From: Lama guanicoe
Lineage: Eukaryota
Direction: 5' to 3'
DNA length: 64,000 bases
NCBI GenBank assembly: GCA_013239625.1
Contig: MU053873.1
Coordinates: 2,184,524 to 2,248,523, forward strand
Below are positions 1-45,160 of this stretch, piece by piece; positions within the stretch are counted from its first letter, which is position 1, and every line of letters begins with the position of its first letter. The notes below the pieces were generated by a model that did no database searches, was not told the origin of the DNA, and was given only the letters and a program-made list of their open reading frames with translations. The position numbers and the translations under genes are program-made.

Positions 1-9
1 AGCAGGACC

Positions 10-185
10 AGGGGCTGTGGAGTCCGGCAGACCTTGGAACCAGGTCTGGCAGGAGAAATACGTCTTTGCTACTCTGAGCCTCAGTTTTTCCATCTGCAAA
101 ATTGGAAATTCTAATCCCTGTTCTTGATTTCTCCCTCTTTTGTGAGATGCAAGTCCAAGAGGGCATGGAAACGTGCTGTAAGCTA
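10..185 (+). mobile_element. MIR SINE remnant
   Basis: MIR core-like ctctgagcctcagtttttccatctgcaaaattgg with flanking MIR-like head and tail. Confidence 0.75.
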
Positions 186-630
186 CCACATGCTGGAGGG
201 GGCATAAGGAGGTACCAGTGGCCGTGATGCACAACATATTACACTTATGTATAAATAGACTGAGGACAGCAATAGTCCCCTTGAATGTGCAAGACTATTA
301 CATAGACTGAGTAGCAACTAAGTACCTGTACTTCCGTTAATAATTTCTTCAGATGGTCCCAAACAAAAGGAAGAGAGTATGCTCATCTGGGTGATACTTC
401 TGAGCCTGCTCTAAGAGACAGTTCCTCAGATTCACAGCACCCCAAAATGTGATTCAGACTGTGATAACTCCGCAGGATTAAGGGAGGGGGGAGGATAAAG
501 AGAGGGTCCTAAAATCTTTTCATTATGGACTCAAATTTTATTTGTATTTATAATGAGTTATCAACCAGAAGAAAGCTGTCAATTTGTCGATGACAATGGG
601 TCCTTAAAGGGAACAGATAAGAACAGCTAA

Positions 631-1210
631 TAATTAGTACATAAATCAATTGCAAGTCAGTGTTTGGATTTGTGATTAGCATACAAGTAATTTGTTGTTT
701 GACATTTTTGAGATTAAGCGTCGGTGTAATTAGCACATAAATCATTTGCACATGAGTGCTCCTGAAGTGTCTGGTGTGTAATTAGATGTAAATCATTTGT
801 ATTTGGGGGTTTCTAAGGTATTTGGTGTGTCATTAGCACATAAATCATTTGTACATTAGTGTTTTTAAAGTGCTGTGTAATTAGCACATGGATTATCTGC
901 AAATATGCATTTCAAATTATTTGTTTGTTATTAGCATGCAAATCATTGGTGCATAGAATCTTCTAAATTATTTAGTGGTCAGTGAGTACGTATTTAATTT
1001 GTAAATAAGACATTCTAAAGTGTCTTTTGTAATTAGCACATACACCAGTTGTGTATATGTGTATGTTTGAGTTGCCTGATTTGTGATTAGTGCACAGATC
1101 ATTTTCTGAATGAGCTCTCTTAAGTGACTTATAGTTTGCATAGAAATCATTTATCAATGGGCGTTTCTAAGGCACTTGATTTATAATTGACATATACGCA
1201 ATTTGTAGAT
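631..1210. repeat. Degenerate tandem array, ~12 units of ~50 bp, core TAATTAGCACATAAATCATTTG
   Basis: Core anchors at 631, 673, 727, 779, 830, 878, 928, ~980, 1030, 1084, 1132, 1184 (spacing 42-54 bp). Confidence 0.85.
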
Positions 1211-1835
1211 GGGTCTTTAATAACTGCTTGAAAAAAGTTCTTCCTCTCTTAAGAGATACTCTTTTATCCTGTGTACATTTGCTTAGCAAGCATAATTGCA
1301 CTTGTAGAAAGAAAGATTTATCAGTTGCTGAGGTTTTCTCTCTTCTCACTCCAAGCTCAGAATGCACATCTTGCATCTCAAAACATTTCACAACACTGTG
1401 CTGTTGGCTTGTATGAGACCAAAAGCCTGGTGTCTCTCTAGAGATTCAGGTCAAATCTCAAAGTCTCTTTCAGTGAGGTGAAGGTGTCTCTTGTGTTCTA
1501 GGAGATCAGAAAGCACCGTCTGGACCTAACTGATAAGAGGGATTTGGCAAAAAATAATCAAATGGGAATCACTAATTTGTGAATAAATACAAACTTTATT
1601 CAAATAAGAAGCCCAGTGACTCCCCAAATAACTATGAAGGAAACAGGAAAGGGAATTAAATTTTTGGTCAGTTAGTGGATGCCAGGAACCGACCTAATCG
1701 TAGGGGAGAAATCTCACTTAGTTATAATAACCATCCCGACGGACACTCATTGCACCTCCAGCATGAATCAAAGCAACAGAAAGAAACATCCCAGAGTTTA
1801 AAAACTCTTGAGAATGTGTTTAAAAAGCACCCTCA

Positions 1836-1880
1836 CATATACTTATATACAACTGGTATATGTGCTAATTACAAAAGATA
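1836..1880 (-). repeat. Inverted copy of array segment 1021-1065
   Basis: Reverse complement of 1021-1065 matches 1836-1880 at 40/45 positions without gaps. Confidence 0.9.
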
Positions 1881-2059
1881 TGATAGATAAAATAATGAAA
1901 AGATGACCATGACTAGATAAATTCTGGCTTTGAATCCCAGAGGCAACTTACAAATCCTTTAAGAATCTAGACAGGAAAAATGAAACATTAAAAGAATCAT
2001 TTTATCTTTAAAAGACCATGATCTCTCCCCTGCAATAGTAAATTCTCCCAAAAAGGAAT

Positions 2060-2270
2060 ATTAAAAGGATAAAAGTTGTGGCCCAAGAATTTTATACCCA
2101 GCCAAACTGTTTTTAATGTTTGACAACAACAGAAGAAAACATTCTTATACATTTAAGGATTTGGAAAATCAAAACAGACTCTCATGTACTCTTCTTGAAA
2201 AAAAAATTCATTGCAGGAGTATCTTAGTCCACGAATGGATGAATCAAAATTCAGGACTCAAGAATGGCTA
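2060..2270 (+). mobile_element. Old L1/HAL1-type ORF1 remnant
   Basis: 2083-2115 translates to PRILYPAKLFL, close to the conserved L1 ORF1p C-terminal PRILYPAKLS motif; no intact ORF. Confidence 0.7.
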
Positions 2271-2964
2271 AATGATGATAAGAAAAGACTTGCACGTAAA
2301 CTATTTCTTAATTTGGACCCAGCAAGAGATTCTATCTGAATAATGGCGTGAACAGTAGGGTTTAGAGGTCGGTCCTGGGAAAGGGAGAGGAGAGATACAA
2401 TGGAGGGAGACTCTATGTGGCTGACTCTCTGCTGAGACAGGCACACGTAGGTAGGGATGCCCAGCCCAGCTGCATTCCTGAGGCTCGGTCCAAGCTCCGT
2501 GATGAACTTACATGACATTCCTTCCTCTTTCTATGCCCTAACTTTCTCCATCTAACAGAATGGTGGAAATGAACAAAATGTTCATTTAGGTTGTCTCTGG
2601 TCAGAAGAGACTCTCCCCCAGTATTCAGAAAGGCTTGAAGATTACACAGTGCCCAATCTTTGCCAAATCATTTATAGCAGGGTTTTCATTAACCAGCCTG
2701 TAGTATCTGCATCAGGAATGCCCTTGTGTGCTTAATACTTTCCCTTAAATAAATACATAAACTTATTTAATACACATATTTGCATAATACCTAATTTACA
2801 GCATTTTATTAAATGACTATTAAAATTAAATAATTTAAATATTTTATATAACAAACATCTTTATTTCAAGAACTTATTTATGTAAGCACTTTAAAAGGAA
2901 AACCCTCATCACCAGCCATAAATAGAAGGCAACCACAAATTTAAAAGCAATGAAAATATTACAT

Positions 2965-3193
2965 TTTGTTATTAATAAGATACACAGGGCTTTTTGTTTG
3001 TTGTTAGTTTGTATTTGTTTTATGTGTCTTTCTGTCTCTCTCTTTTTTTACATTTCAGCAACTTTGAAATTGGGATGTAACTTACAATGAACGATCTTTT
3101 ACAATTAATTGGATTGTTTTTCCTTTCTCAGAGGTATGTAAAAATCACAGTGCATCTTACAATCATGGCGCCTTCGAGTGAGTGAAATACAGT
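2965..3193. mobile_element. TcMar-Tigger-like MITE remnant (Tigger15a/MamRep434-like)
   Basis: tgaaattgggatgtaacttacaat ... gcatcttacaatcatggcgccttcgagtgagtgaaatacagt resembles this family's body and terminus. Confidence 0.5.
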
Positions 3194-4119: not shown

Positions 4120-4460
4120 ACTGTATCTATTTATCTATCATTACACAACATATATACATGTACTGAATATGTATTCAAATGAATCTATATTGAATACTTA
4201 AATACATATTGAATCTATATTTAATAATATAGATTGAAGAATTGAATATAAATGGAATATTGAATAAAAATAGAATTACATTCAATAAAATATACTGAAT
4301 AAAACTGAATATATAGTCAATATTACATACTGACTAGAAACTGAATACATAGAATAACTGAATATATTCCATGTAAACATTTATACATAGAGATGGAATA
4401 TATAAATACCTATATTGAATTATTCAATCCTAAATTCATATCATAATGATGTATACTATA
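4120..4460. repeat. AT-rich degenerate simple repeat built from TGAATA/TTGAAT units
   Basis: Many copies of (a/t)tgaat(a/c) in very AT-rich sequence. Confidence 0.75.
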
Positions 4461-4840: not shown

Positions 4841-5974
4841 TTTAAAACAAAACAAGAACAATTGGAATCAGCTTACTTGAAAGCACCCCACCCCAGACGT
4901 CTCAGTTATACGAACAGGTTATACGTAACACGAAATATACAAATGCACTTGTACACACATACACACACATATATGTTTATTAATTTAGTTTGAATTGAAT
5001 TGGATAGTTTACAACAGAAAGAGACCTAATGAACACACTTTTGGAGCCCAGATTGAACTTTAATTTATTCCAAACTCATTGTTCATCCTTAGGCTCCTTA
5101 ATGCAAGTCATTTTTAATGGTTTTGCTTCCAAACCGGTTCTCTAAGAAAACAGCCCCAGCAGCTGGACAGAGCGCATGCAGCCTGGAGTGAGTCTGGGAG
5201 GAGAGCCCTCCAGGTTAAGCTCCCAGCTGCAGGGGGAAGTGGGCTGAGCGTGATTTCTGAATAAGCCTCGACAAAGCCTAACCGAGCATCCCTGCTTTAT
5301 TCCGCCTCCTTAGCGCTGACCTCTGGCCCCTCACCCGGCGCTCCACCACACGCTCAAACCCAGTTTGTCCAAATAAAACCCGACTGTCTGCAAGTCCAGG
5401 TGAAAGAGACATAGCAGAATACATCTTTAAAGCCAAAAGTTATATACACACACACATATATTATCGGAATGCTGTTCTTGCTTCGTGAGCCTCAATTGAA
5501 AAAGAAGAGAGAGGAGATTTTGAGGGGACTGATTCTCTGGCTTTGTGGCCTGAGGTAAATGCCTTGCCTTCCTGGAGCCTTTCAAACGGGTCACGAGGAC
5601 CTACAGCTGTTCCCTCCCAGCACTGGCATTTTTGATTATTTGTAAGAAATGAGGGGACCCACGTAGCAGCTAAATAGTCCCGCATTTGTTCACTCACCTC
5701 ATCCTACCATTTCATTCATTCATTCATTCTGGCCCTTCCGTGAACTGGCCACGTCGTGAGGTAACAGGGCATGTCTCATCAGACAGATTTGCATTCAAAT
5801 CGCTGTTCTGTGACCTTCGACAGCTCTTTCCAAGTCCTGGAATCTAGGTTGCCTGCTCTCCAAGTGATGATCCCTGCCGAGGGCAGACTGGAGGGCCTGG
5901 TACCAAATAAATGCCTAGAGGGTACCCATTTCAGAGCCCCTCTTCACGTTCTCTCCTTTATCAAAACTTGATCA

Positions 5975-7225
5975 TATGAGGACTTTTGCATCCAGCCAAG
6001 ATGGAGTAACAGGGCCCTGGATTTACCCTCCCATCTGAACACAAAATGAAAAACACAGCTATAAAGAGAGTCTAACCTTTAAAAATTGTGAATCACTATA
6101 TTGTCCACCTGTAAGTTACATAATATTGTACATCAACTAAACTTCAATTTTAAAAAAGATAGAAAAAAACACATAAAGTAAAAGTACAAGCCAAAAGAAT
6201 TTAAAAAAACATATATGAAACAATGGTTTTCAAGATATTGGACATCAGGCAACAAGGAACAGGGATCCTGGAGAGATGGCAAAGCAATGAGGAGAGCCCT
6301 GTGGTGACTCCAGCTTCTGACACAGAGAGGAGGGGACCAGACAGATCAGGTGCTCTTGAGTTGAAGAGATGGAGCTGGGTGTCCAGGGAGGCCAAGAGAG
6401 CTACAATTTGCAGAGCAAAGTACCAGAGAAGAGAGGAACCCACATAAAAAGAGCTCCGGAGATTGGCAGAGGGTTATCCTCAAGTCGTTGGCAGAGTATC
6501 TACCAGCACATGCTTGTAAGGAAATGACTCGAGGCCGGGAGAATACTACCCGAAAGGAGTAACAGAACAATATCCAGGGGCATCCCCCGTCCTCTCAGAT
6601 GGGACCCTCAGAAGGGCCTCTGTCATGGGCAATAATTAGTCTTAGACCAAACTCTTTTCTGGTCCTACCTGACAAAGCTTAAGAGCAAGACCTGAAAGAA
6701 TGAAACTGTTTCCCAGTAACTTAATGGCATCCAGGAACAAGGCTCAAACATATTTATAGAAATGCAAAAATATCCAGCAACTGAAAGGGTATAAAATTCA
6801 TAATCGCTGGCATGAGATCGAAATGTTAGCAGGCATGCAGAGAAGCAGGAACACACAGCCCATGATGAGGAGAAACAGCAACCAACTGAAAATGACCCAA
6901 AAGTAACAAGAACATTGAAAGAGCTTTTATAATTATATTTTATATGTTCAATAACCTGGAGGAAAAGATTGAGCACATTAAGTGGAGACATGGAAGATAT
7001 AAAAATGAATTCCAGAAGTGAAGACTAAAATGTCTGGGATGAAAAATATACCGATTGGCATTAACAGCAGTTTAGACCTTGCAGGAGAAAAGATTAGTGA
7101 ACTTGAAGCCATACAGATAGAAACTACTGAAGCCACACGGAGAAAAAGAGAATTTAAACACTGAGCAGAGCATCAGTGAGCTGTGGGAAAATGTCAAGCA
7201 GCCTAATATGCATGTAATTATTCCT
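5975..7225 (+). mobile_element. Old L1 (L1MC/L1MD-type) 5' UTR and degenerate ORF1 start
   Basis: Starts ...ccagccaagatggagtaacaggg...; later aaaagattagtgaacttgaag and gagcatcagtgagctgtggga...cctaatatgcatgtaatt, typical of L1M ORF1. Confidence 0.8.
6058..6164 (+). mobile_element. Short L1 3'-end insertion nested in the older L1
   Basis: tgtgaatcactatattgtccacctgtaag...ttgtacatcaactaaacttcaatt plus A tail; candidate TSD AAAAACACA at 6049-6057 and 6165-6173. Confidence 0.7.
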
Positions 7226-7399
7226 GACGCAGGGAGGCAGCCCCCTCCATTCTTTGGGAAGAGATCTCTTCTCTCCTGTGTCTGAGTCAGGGACCTGGCG
7301 AAGCATGGCAGGTGGCAGGTGTTTGGTTGTTATAAGCAAGAAATTAGAAAGTATATGGGCAGTGCTTGTAGCCGGCATTCTGTAAAGAGCTATCTCTGA

Positions 7400-23728: not shown

Positions 23729-24535
23729 TTTTGACATTTATTTTTATTGTAGTATAGTCAGTTTATAATGTGTCAATTTCTAGTGTACAGCATAATGTTT
23801 CAGTCATATATATATATTCATTTTTATATTCTTTTTCATTATAGGTTACTACAAGATGTTGAATATAGTTCCCTATGCTATACAGAAGAAACTTGTTTTA
23901 TATCTGTTTTATATACAGTAGTTATTATTTGCAGCTCTCAGACTCCCAGTTTATCTCTTCCCACTTCTTATCCCCTCTAGTAACCATAAGTTTGTTTACT
24001 TAGGTCTACGAGTCTGTTTCTGTTTTGTAGATAAGTTCATTAGCGTCTTCTTTTTTCTTTTCCTTTTATTTCTTATTTTTTAATTAAAAAAATCTGGGGG
24101 GGGGAGGTAATTAGGTTTACTTATTTTTTTTTTTAATGGAGGGACTGGGATCGAACCCAAGACCTTGTGCATGCTAGGCATGCACTCTACCACTGGGCTA
24201 TACCCTCCCTCAATTTTTAAACTTTTTTTTTCTTTTTTCTTTGTTTTAGATTCCATTTATGAATGATATCATGTGGATTTTTCTTTCTCTTTCTGGCTTA
24301 CTTCACTTAGCATGATGATCTCCAGCTCCGTTCATGTTGCTGCAAATGGCATGATTTTATTATTTTTTATGGCTGAGTAGTATTCCATTGCATAAATATA
24401 CCACAACTTCTTTATCCAGTCATCAGTCAGTGGACATTTAGGCTGCTTCCATGTCTTGGCTACTGTATGTAGTGCTGCTATGAACACTGAGGTACACGTA
24501 TCTTTTTGAATTAGAGTTCCCTCTGGATATATGTC
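23729..24535 (-). mobile_element. Young 5'-truncated L1 (camelid-type) carrying a nested SINE
   Basis: L1 3' UTR and ORF2 end (catgttgctgcaaatggc, ggctgagtagtattccattg); perfect 13-bp TSD caggacatctttt at 23716-23728 and 24536-24548. Confidence 0.9.
24080..24210 (-). mobile_element. tRNA-derived SINE of camelid type (Vic-1-like)
   Basis: Reverse strand reads gggagggtatagcccagtggtagagtgcatgcctagcatgcacaaggtcttgggttcgatcccagtccctccattaaaa...aaacctaattacctcccccc; A box 24190-24200, B box 24147-24157. Confidence 0.85.
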
Positions 24536-25149: not shown

Positions 25150-25420
25150 GCGTTTTTTTTTAAGAATTAATTGCCCTTTTTATGGTTTTGGTGTGCTTGT
25201 ACTCGCGAGAACCCTGGCACCCTTAATCACAACAACAACATTTTCTCTGAACAGAGAAAATCTGAACAGTCATTAAGCACCAGCGAATGTGGAGCGTATT
25301 AATGGGCAAACAGTAAGTCGGGGAAGAGGAAAATGTTTTTCTCTCGCAAAGTACATACGAAAAGTTGATCCAAACCAACGCGCTGCCATAAATCTGTTAA
25401 TTTTGGCAAATTAGGGGGAG
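25150..25420. promoter_or_regulatory. Repeat-free CNE-like block with HOX/PBX motifs and a candidate exon
   Basis: TTTATGG 25179-25185, CCATAAATC 25386-25394, AATTAATT, CTCGCGAG 25202-25209. Confidence 0.4.
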
Positions 25421-36819: not shown

Positions 36820-37570
36820 AAAACAAACACGCAGCAGCCTGACAGTGGGAATAAATATCGCTGCGATGTTGATTAGCATTTGATCCCAGCTGGGGCTCTG
36901 GAAGCTAAAGTACTGGAATGTCTTGGCAGTTTTTTAATGCTGAATAATTTGATTAGATCAGTGACTGAGCCTGCTGCTCCTGGTGAGATAAACCCTCCCC
37001 ACATTACAGGGGCGAGAGGCAGGGGGGACGGAGGGAGCACATCCGAAGCCCCCCCAACTCCGGCTCCTCCGCCAGCCCTCGGCTTCCTGCCCTGCCTCTC
37101 TCCCCTCCTCTCCCTCTGTCTCCTCTTTCTCCCTCTCCGCTCCTCTCTCTCTTCCCTCCTCCTCCTCTCTCTTCTGCAGCTCTCCCACTCTTCCTCTCCC
37201 CTTACCCACCCCACTTCCTCCTTTTATGAAGCCTTAAATACATCATTTAATCAACTCCACAATTTCAATTTCACACAGTTGTCAGCTCGAATGTCTGATG
37301 AGGTGGTGAAGACCCCACAGATTGCGGGCAGGGGTGACAGGGCCACCAGGCCTCTGCCCCACCCCGCTCCTTCCAGCCTCAGCCCCACCCCCGGCCAGCC
37401 CGGGAGGGATTCTGGAGGGTTCTGTTCCCTCGTGGCAACTGTCAGTCAGTCATGTAGCTGTTTCTCCTGTCATCAGCGTGAAATGACCAGAGTGGGTTTC
37501 ATTATCTGCTTACTCCAAACTGGGAGGCGATATTTCTGTATGAAGGATAATAATCTCCACTTAAAACGAG
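36820..37570. promoter_or_regulatory. Repeat-free CNE-like block around a pyrimidine tract
   Basis: Paired-class homeodomain dimer site TAATTTGATTA 36945-36955; several TGACAG/CTGTCA; CT-rich tract ~37085-37222. Confidence 0.4.
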
Positions 37571-45092: not shown

Positions 45093-45160
45093 CCGCCGCC
45101 GCCACCACCACCACCGCCACCACCACCACCACCGCCACCACCACCACCACCGCCACCACC
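45093..45160. repeat. Interrupted trinucleotide repeat (CCG)3(CCA)4[CCG(CCA)5]2CCG(CCA)2
   Basis: Read directly; 22 triplets. Confidence 0.95.

What the first reader, a model, noticed from the sequence alone, without database searches (positions are those of the whole stretch)
631..1210. ~50-bp degenerate tandem array that preserves a composite homeodomain/PBX-HOX/POU-like core
Seen: about 12 units at 42-54 bp spacing. The core TGT(A/G)ATTAGCACATAAATCATTTG(C/T)A is visibly better retained than the linkers. Each good unit has TAATTA next to TAAATCA(T) (reverse strand TGATTTA), and unit 7 has a perfect octamer ATGCAAAT (936-943). Established: TAATTA is the generic homeodomain site, TGATTTAT the PBX-HOX type site and ATGCAAAT the POU site. 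Inference: an old minisatellite with cores held more constant than linkers, acting as a homotypic TF-site array at roughly five helical turns. I do not recognise it as any standard mammalian repeat family.
Basis: partly seen in the sequence, partly recalled or inferred. Interest (0 to 1): 0.75.

Follow-up and report, generated by a model that had tools for sequence, protein, structure and literature searches.

The report
Fossil 52-bp array beside LINE-1 debris
Twelve worn copies of a 52-base unit lie head-to-head with what is likely a broken LINE-1 gene in a mammalian genome; one half of each copy is better preserved, but the proposed transcription-factor sites are no better kept than the bases around them, so this is likely old mobile-element debris and not a working gene switch.

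Summary
The array is real: 12 units, 52-column consensus, 629-1233, 59% mean pairwise identity. Cores match the consensus at 248 of 311 bases (80%), linkers at 189 of 290 (65%). After correcting for choosing the core by eye, p is about 0.004-0.12, depending on the null. The homeodomain reading gains no support: motif bases are kept no better than other core bases (136 of 168 vs 112 of 143, p 0.57), only 3 of 12 units hold both TAATTA and TAAATCA, the octamer occurs once, and helical phase drifts. First, a 13th unit lies inverted at 1835-1887 and is a specific copy of unit 9. Second, a decayed LINE-1 ORF1-like stretch follows it (weak Pfam and PDB matches), and strand skew flips at 1499/1500, between array and remnant. 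Best reading: a fossil array, likely the inverted arm of an old L1/HAL1-type insertion (0.45), with its core/linker pattern inherited. Family membership and orthologue conservation could not be tested: no genome or repeat library was available. The scan noted this same stretch in an overlapping window; no look-alike on other DNA was found.

The parts
629..1233 (-). Degenerate tandem array, 12 units, 52-column consensus (unit lengths 42-54). Strand given as the A-rich strand.
   Evidence: Mean pairwise identity 59%. A 176 vs T 238 on +, p 0.003. GC 32%.
725..875 (-). Best-preserved units 3-5 (74-81% identical to each other); the only part TRF reports
936..943 (+). Single ATGCAAAT octamer in unit 7; a derived variant, not in the consensus
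1014..1081 (-). End of unit 8 plus unit 9: source of the inverted copy. Unit 9 has lost TAAATCA and forms the strongest DNA hairpin of the 12 units (-5.6 kcal/mol).
1234..1499 (-). Unique T-rich segment with the same skew as the array; candidate rest of the inverted arm. No homology found.
   Evidence: Skew -0.15, p 0.07. No match elsewhere in the window or in Pfam.
1499..1500 (.). AT-skew change point (T-rich to the left, A-rich to the right); candidate inversion junction
   Evidence: 1.3% of 1,190 overlapping positions elsewhere in the window flip as strongly; the change point was chosen from the data
1500..1834 (+). A-rich segment; its last 70 bases resemble, by recall only, the RRM part of L1 ORF1p
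   Evidence: Skew +0.28, p 8e-5. Translation. No Pfam hit and no L1 hit in the PDB.
1835..1887 (+). Solitary 13th unit, inverted relative to the array; a specific copy of 1014-1066
   Evidence: 45 of 53 identical to unit 9's register vs 20-35 of 53 for the other 11 units; 5 derived sites shared with unit 9. E 3e-9. Flanks not homologous.
1888..2270 (+). Decayed LINE-1/HAL1-type ORF1 remnant (RRM end and C-terminal domain), with stops and apparent frameshifts
   Evidence: PF17490 is the only Pfam family hit for 3 of 3 short translations, E 0.038-0.09, below its cut-off; no hit for the 160-aa read-through. Best PDB hit is 2jrb 'ORF 1 protein', E 0.12 and 0.038. Skew +0.22.

Best explanation
This is a real, heavily decayed array of twelve 52-base units that is likely mobile-element debris, probably the inverted arm of an ancient LINE-1/HAL1-type insertion, and likely has no present regulatory role. 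Proposed history: (1, inferred) a 52-bp unit was amplified in tandem in, or from, an old L1-type element. The units already differed more in their linkers than in their cores when amplification stopped, through constraint in the parent element or exchange and slippage concentrated in the linkers. (2, inferred) The element inserted with a 5' inversion, leaving the array-bearing arm (629-1499, A-rich on the minus strand) head-to-head with the ORF1-bearing arm (1500-2300, A-rich on the plus strand). (3, shown) Units then diverged to 59% mean identity, with motif and non-motif core bases lost at the same rate. (4, copy shown, mechanism inferred) Later a roughly 50-base stretch of unit 9 was copied in inverted orientation about 770 bp away, likely as a locally templated patch during replication or break repair. 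The homeodomain-like words are present in most decayed form because they were in the ancestral AT-rich unit.
For: The skew flips at 1499/1500, between array and ORF1 remnant. L1 ORFs are A-biased on the sense strand (PMC5381506, passages). About 10% of human L1 copies, and 639 of 2,068 recent human and chimpanzee insertions, are 5'-inverted (PMC2912911, passages). Two libraries give weak, concordant L1 ORF1 C-terminal matches. There is no motif-specific retention, the composite site is intact in 3 of 12 units, and phase is not kept. At least 23% of human mini/satellites derive from transposable elements (PMC3389668, abstract). Some mammalian L1 5' UTRs carry tandemly duplicated 70-100-bp motifs (PMC5381506, passages). 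Locally templated and inverted sequence occurs at L1 insertion sites (PMC11702581 and PMC4245944, passages).
Against: No second genomic copy of the array was found, and nothing links the array's own sequence to L1: no Pfam match and no similarity to the other L1-like remnant at 5901-7300. The ORF1 matches are below curated cut-offs, and three protein-database searches returned nothing. Known L1 5' UTR repeats are GC- and CpG-rich (57% GC in mammals), whereas this array is 32% GC; CpG-decay-like columns exist but are not decisive. I recall no such repeat in HAL1/L1M consensus sequences (recall, unchecked). The core/linker contrast exceeds a uniform neutral model (p 0.004-0.04), so unequal constraint or unequal mutation acted at some time; I cannot date it. 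A skew flip is also expected from two unrelated neighbours. The inverted patch is 85-91% identical to unit 9, which looks younger than the ORF1 remnant, so it does not tie the array to the insertion event.
Confidence: 0.45

Rival explanations
1. A minisatellite born at this locus, unrelated to the neighbouring L1 remnant, now decaying neutrally; the core/linker contrast comes from slippage and unequal exchange concentrated in the linkers.
For: No other copy in the window apart from one local duplicate. No look-alike among the scan's indexed windows. Nearly all indels fall in linkers. No higher-order structure: identity is 54-61% at all lags 1-7. Earlier scan notes describe several fossil minisatellites in this genome (unchecked).
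Against: The skew continues past the array to 1499 and then flips, as if array and flank were one inserted piece. A uniform neutral model reaches the observed contrast in only 0.4-4% of runs.
Confidence: 0.22
2. One reading: a functional homotypic enhancer or silencer in which purifying selection holds homeodomain/PBX-HOX/POU sites. This could be true on top of any origin.
For: Core better kept than linker beyond neutral simulation, also within A/T columns (81-82% vs 70%). The ATTA columns are the best kept (43 of 48). Both motif types co-occur in 0.6% of shuffled consensuses. Tandem-repeat enhancers made of homotypic motif clusters exist (PMC13373173, passages).
Against: Motif bases 136/168 vs other core bases 112/143, p 0.57; the motif term is about zero in a logistic fit. 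The PBX-HOX word is the less well kept part of the core (74 of 96). Both motifs are intact in 3 of 12 units and the octamer in 1 of 12. Phase is not kept. Motifs were chosen after seeing a 71% AT consensus, in which TAATT(A/G) alone arises in 18% of shuffles.
Confidence: 0.17
3. Internal or subterminal repeat of a different old transposable element (DNA transposon or LTR element), with cores once bound by an element or host protein.
For: A conserved core with dyad-like halves and variable spacers is what protein-bound repeats in elements look like (general knowledge). An inverted unit exists at 1835-1887.
Against: The inverted copy is one 53-base patch and neither flank is homologous (scores within the shuffle range), so there are no long inverted arms. 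None of the 25 longest inverted repeats listed, of 103 found in 1-3000, stood out as termini bracketing the array. No transposase-like match.
Confidence: 0.13
4. Remnant of a protein-coding repeat exon (17-residue unit on the minus strand).
For: One minus-strand frame has 11 stops in 300 codons against 16 and 29 in the other two, with open stretches of 92 and 64 codons separated by one stop.
Against: The consensus is 52 bp and 5 of 11 spacings are not multiples of 3. The best 165-codon window has 3 stops, matched or beaten by 338 of 1,000 shuffles. No hit among 1.84 billion proteins (weak, since L1-type queries also failed in the companion database) or in Pfam.
Confidence: 0.03

Closest known systems
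5'-inverted LINE-1 insertions made by twin priming (PMC2912911, passages), and HAL1, the ORF1-only L1 derivative (PMC5753468, passages)
   Same: Two head-to-head segments with opposite A-rich strands; a plus-strand segment with a weak match to the ORF1p C-terminal domain
   Different: No L1 homology is shown for the array-bearing arm; target-site duplication, poly(A) tail and subfamily were not established; a 52-bp AT-rich internal array was not described in any paper I found
Transposon-derived and fossil minisatellites (PMC3389668, abstract)
   Same: Head-to-tail units of about 50 bp in a transposon-rich setting; local duplication of a unit
   Different: Far more decayed (59% between units) than those TRF normally reports; parent element not identified
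IFNB1-MRE, a tandem-repeat enhancer with 45 PU.1 motifs (PMC13373173, passages)
   Same: A tandem array whose unit carries transcription-factor-like words
   Different: MRE core units are over 95% identical to consensus, motif density is conserved across mammals and activity is shown. Here units match consensus at 73% overall (437 of 601), the composite motif survives in 3 of 12, and nothing functional is shown.
Locally templated insertions and template-switch events (PMC11702581, passages; PMC5453318, search listing only)
   Same: A short inverted copy of nearby DNA (1835-1887 from 1014-1066)
   Different: The source is about 770 bp away; the event is ancient and its junction signatures are eroded

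Membership tests
LINE-1/HAL1-derived sequence | ORF1p homology in the adjacent segment | tested here: inconclusive
   PF17490 E 0.038-0.09, below its cut-off of 22.2 bits; PDB 2jrb top hit, E 0.038-0.12; RRM part undetected
LINE-1/HAL1-derived sequence | A-rich sense strand | tested here: met
   Array A-rich on minus (p 0.003); 1500-1834 and 1888-2300 A-rich on plus (p 8e-5, 3e-4). Not specific to L1.
LINE-1/HAL1-derived sequence | Array matches an L1/HAL1 subfamily consensus | not testable with these tools
   No Dfam/Repbase library; the primary HAL1 paper is not held
LINE-1/HAL1-derived sequence | Dispersed copies across the genome | not testable with these tools
   No whole genome held; prokaryote, viral and metagenome collections are uninformative for a mammalian repeat
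LINE-1/HAL1-derived sequence | Target-site duplication, poly(A) tail, absence of ORF2 (HAL1) | not tested
   Element ends could not be placed
Homotypic-motif tandem-repeat enhancer (MRE type) | Tandem repeat whose unit carries the motif | tested here: met
   Consensus holds TAATTA and TAAATCA
Homotypic-motif tandem-repeat enhancer (MRE type) | Dense intact motifs, kept better than neighbouring bases | tested here: not met
   Both motifs in 3 of 12 units; motif vs non-motif core p 0.57
Homotypic-motif tandem-repeat enhancer (MRE type) | Motif cluster conserved across mammals; binding and reporter activity | not testable with these tools
   No orthologues, chromatin data or assay available
Minisatellite | Head-to-tail units of 10-60 bp | tested here: met
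Minisatellite | Near-identical units, as in an active VNTR | tested here: not met
   Mean pairwise identity 59%, maximum 81%
Minisatellite | Copy-number variation between individuals | not tested
   15 runs hold 92-96% of the sampled words of 400-2400, but no reads were laid
Foldback / long-TIR DNA transposon | Long inverted arms on both sides | tested here: not met
   Inverted homology limited to 53 bases; flanks within the shuffle range
Protein-coding repeat | Unit length a multiple of three and an open frame | tested here: not met
   52-column consensus, 5 of 11 spacings off-frame, stop scarcity not significant

The most novel reading that the evidence does not exclude
An ancient L1/HAL1 lineage carried an undescribed 52-bp monomer array whose cores bind homeodomain (including PBX-HOX and POU) factors, an AT-rich counterpart of mouse L1 promoter monomers. 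This copy was kept by the host as a developmental cis-element, with selection acting on the whole 26-bp core and not on single textbook motifs.
Probability: 0.07. Interest if true: 0.65.

Novelty: new member of a known kind. Interest (0 to 1): 0.18.

Why it matters
On the best reading it matters little: it is one more fossil tandem array in a transposon-rich mammalian interval. Two small lessons remain. A better-kept core in an old array is not by itself evidence of selection on transcription-factor sites; the motif bases must beat their neighbours, and here they do not. The inverted copy of unit 9 also gives an internal clock: copy and source differ by about 0.17-0.22 substitutions per site against about 0.60 between units, so unit divergence, including loss of the PBX-HOX-like word in unit 9, is much older than the copy. 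If orthologues did show constraint on the cores, this would be an example of a retroelement repeat kept as a homeodomain-site array, and it could be tested directly by reporter assay.

Tried and rejected
Whole-genome search: none held. Exact 22-base core scans: one contig each in the metagenome and viral collections (same length and flanks), a single isolated match with no array, taken as chance. Degenerate core in prokaryote genomes: 0. Two-unit pattern in viral contigs: 125 loci returned of about 240 estimated; a profile search of all 127 loci held showed no array, best E 0.006 for the match. ORF1 C-terminal DNA pattern: 0 in viral and genome collections. These collections are not mammalian, so the blanks carry almost no weight. 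Protein searches: no hit for the ORF1-like read-through, for a better-preserved L1-like piece at 7009-7161 or for one array frame. Pfam: no relevant family for array, flank or RRM-like frames. Read-laying produced no data (no evidence either way). RNA structure: z -0.04 to -0.97 for 4 two-unit pieces, rejected. Rfam on 700-64000: only a tRNA-like head at 24137-24207. CpG decay as the cause of the core/linker contrast: rejected, since the contrast remains after removing CpG-like columns (160/192 vs 173/268). Base composition explains only part. Inverted unit as a transposon's far arm, or as part of a second copy with the same layout: rejected, flanks unrelated. Host gene identification: not achieved (one search failed on output size; no recognisable exon). 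Literature: nine full-text searches; the core letters appear in 0 papers and no listing described this repeat. The library lacks most subscription papers, and Repbase/Dfam entries are not searched. Supplements of PMC7586669 hold none of the four sequence motifs searched.

Full report
Setting. The window is mammalian by its repeat content (my reading). Earlier scan notes on the same genome call it camelid (unchecked). Fifteen public runs, 14 of them labelled with five coded organisms' names and all carrying such a label, hold 92-96% of the sampled words of 400-2400, so the stretch is not peculiar to one assembly. No whole genome is held and there is no repeat library, which limits what can be said about family membership.

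The array. A position-weight scan and alignment give 12 units starting at 629, 671, 725, 777, 828, 876, 926, 978, 1028, 1082, 1130 and 1182, with a 52-column consensus. Self-alignment off the diagonal reaches E 2e-30, so chance is excluded. Mean pairwise identity is 59%, flat across lags 1-7 (54-61%), with units 3-5 closest (74-81%). The Jukes-Cantor distance between units is about 0.60. At ordinary mammalian neutral rates (my knowledge, not a call) that points to an origin near or before the placental radiation, or to units that were already divergent when they arrived.

Core versus linker. Columns 1-26 match the consensus at 248 of 311 bases and columns 27-52 at 189 of 290; 22 of 23 gap cells lie in the linker. 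The contrast survives a phase-free alignment (80-81% vs 66-70%), leave-one-out scoring (80% vs 59%), removal of CpG-like columns and restriction to A/T columns (81-82% vs 70%). Because the core was picked by eye, I corrected for choosing the best half. Column permutation gives p 0.04-0.12, neutral simulation without indels 0.007-0.037 (600 runs per model), and simulation with indels and re-alignment 0.004-0.024 (916 runs). So the contrast is probably real but modest. The linker also holds a second well-kept block (columns 35-44, 76%) that carries none of the proposed motifs.

The transcription-factor reading. If selection held the named sites, their bases should beat the rest of the core. They do not: 136 of 168 vs 112 of 143 (Fisher p 0.57; column permutation p 0.29), and the motif term in a logistic fit is about zero. 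The TAATTA columns are a little higher (62 of 72) and the TGATTTAT columns a little lower (74 of 96) than the other core columns. Intact copies number 5, 4 and 3 of 12 for TAATTA, TAAATCA and both, in line with the core's decay rate. The octamer at 936-943 is a one-off variant. Spacing averages about five turns, but cumulative phase drifts (p about 0.18). The power of these tests is limited: 12 units and 26 columns.

(a) A 13th unit lies inverted at 1835-1887. It matches unit 9's register at 45 of 53 bases against 20-35 for the other 11 units and shares five derived sites with unit 9, including those that break TAAATCA. Trimmed to 44 bases it is 40 of 44 identical. Its flanks are unrelated to the array's flanks, so it is a local patch and not the far arm of a foldback element. 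(b) Directly after it lies a decayed frame whose short translations hit only PF17490, the L1 ORF1 C-terminal domain (E 0.038-0.09, below cut-off), and whose best PDB hit is 2jrb, 'ORF 1 protein'. Each match is weak; they agree. By recall only, the 70 bases before the patch also resemble ORF1p's RRM, which would put the patch inside ORF1 as a later insertion; Pfam and the PDB did not confirm this. (c) AT skew is negative from 629 to 1499 and positive from 1500 to 2300, with a sharp change point; 1.3% of 1,190 overlapping positions elsewhere in the window flip as strongly (change point chosen from the data).

Mechanism. L1 ORFs are A-rich on the sense strand (PMC5381506, passages), and 5'-inverted insertions are common (PMC2912911, passages). 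The simplest single account is an old L1/HAL1-type insertion with an inverted arm that carries the array, head-to-head with the ORF1 arm. The core/linker pattern would then date from the time the units were amplified, and the array has decayed since. Shown: the array, the contrast, the lack of motif-specific retention, the patch and its source, and the skew flip. Weakly shown: ORF1 identity. Inferred: that the array belongs to the L1-type element, the inversion, the templated origin of the patch (parallels in PMC11702581 and PMC4245944, passages), and present neutrality. Against it: no L1 homology for the array arm, low GC compared with known L1 5' UTR repeats, and no second copy seen. I give this 0.45, a locus-born minisatellite 0.22, a functional site array 0.17, another transposon class 0.13 and a coding repeat 0.03. 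The three non-functional DNA-repeat readings together come to 0.80.

Comparison with known kinds. It works like a fossil or transposon-derived minisatellite (PMC3389668, abstract). It meets the structural definition of a minisatellite but not that of an active VNTR. It cannot be filed as L1/HAL1 because the defining consensus match was not testable. It fails the tested features of a homotypic tandem-repeat enhancer such as the IFNB1-MRE (PMC13373173, passages). HAL1 is described in PMC5753468 (passages) and PMC7586669 (passages and two supplementary files); neither passage set mentions such an array, and the primary HAL1 paper was not available. Nine searches found no description of this repeat. 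That is not evidence that Dfam or Repbase lack it. Supplements of the bioRxiv items were not seen and do not bear on a claim here.

What stays open. No reads were laid, so polymorphism and expression are untested. Orthologue conservation, the one test that separates inherited pattern from present selection, could not be run.

Verdict. Observation partly confirmed, interpretation partly supported, a new member of a known kind, interest 0.18.

Noticed in passing
window 1040-1056 and 1845-1861: Unit 9 and its inverted copy both form a 6-bp-stem, 5-nt-loop DNA hairpin. Two of their four internal differences are one compensatory pair (C-G in unit 9, T-A in the copy). My rough chance estimate is a few percent; template-switch correction would explain it.
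   Followed up: partly
window 972-1445 (-): Two open stretches of 92 and 64 codons in one frame, separated by a single stop and running into the array. A 165-codon window test was not significant.
   Followed up: yes
window 560-628: Just upstream of unit 1 are words resembling SOX, GATA and TGTCA sites (recalled motifs) and a fragment like the unit's linker. The profile search did not score it as a unit.
   Followed up: partly
window 4130-4400: A second degenerate AT-rich tandem region (TRF periods 18 and 35 at 4226-4347), followed by sequence that I recall as an old L1 3' end.
   Followed up: no
window 6000-7220 (+): Sequence I recall as the 5' end and ORF1 coiled-coil of an old L1M element; no Pfam or protein-database support.
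   Followed up: partly
window 24137-24207 (-): tRNA-like head (Rfam RF00005, 30.8 bits); likely a tRNA-derived SINE.
   Followed up: no
window 25290-25410, 36860-37000, 37230-37300: TAAT-rich non-repetitive blocks that look by eye like conserved non-coding elements near a developmental gene; untested.
   Followed up: no
window 45096-45160: (CCA)n tract of about 20 copies.
   Followed up: no
window 60-130: MIR-like SINE remnant (recalled).
   Followed up: no
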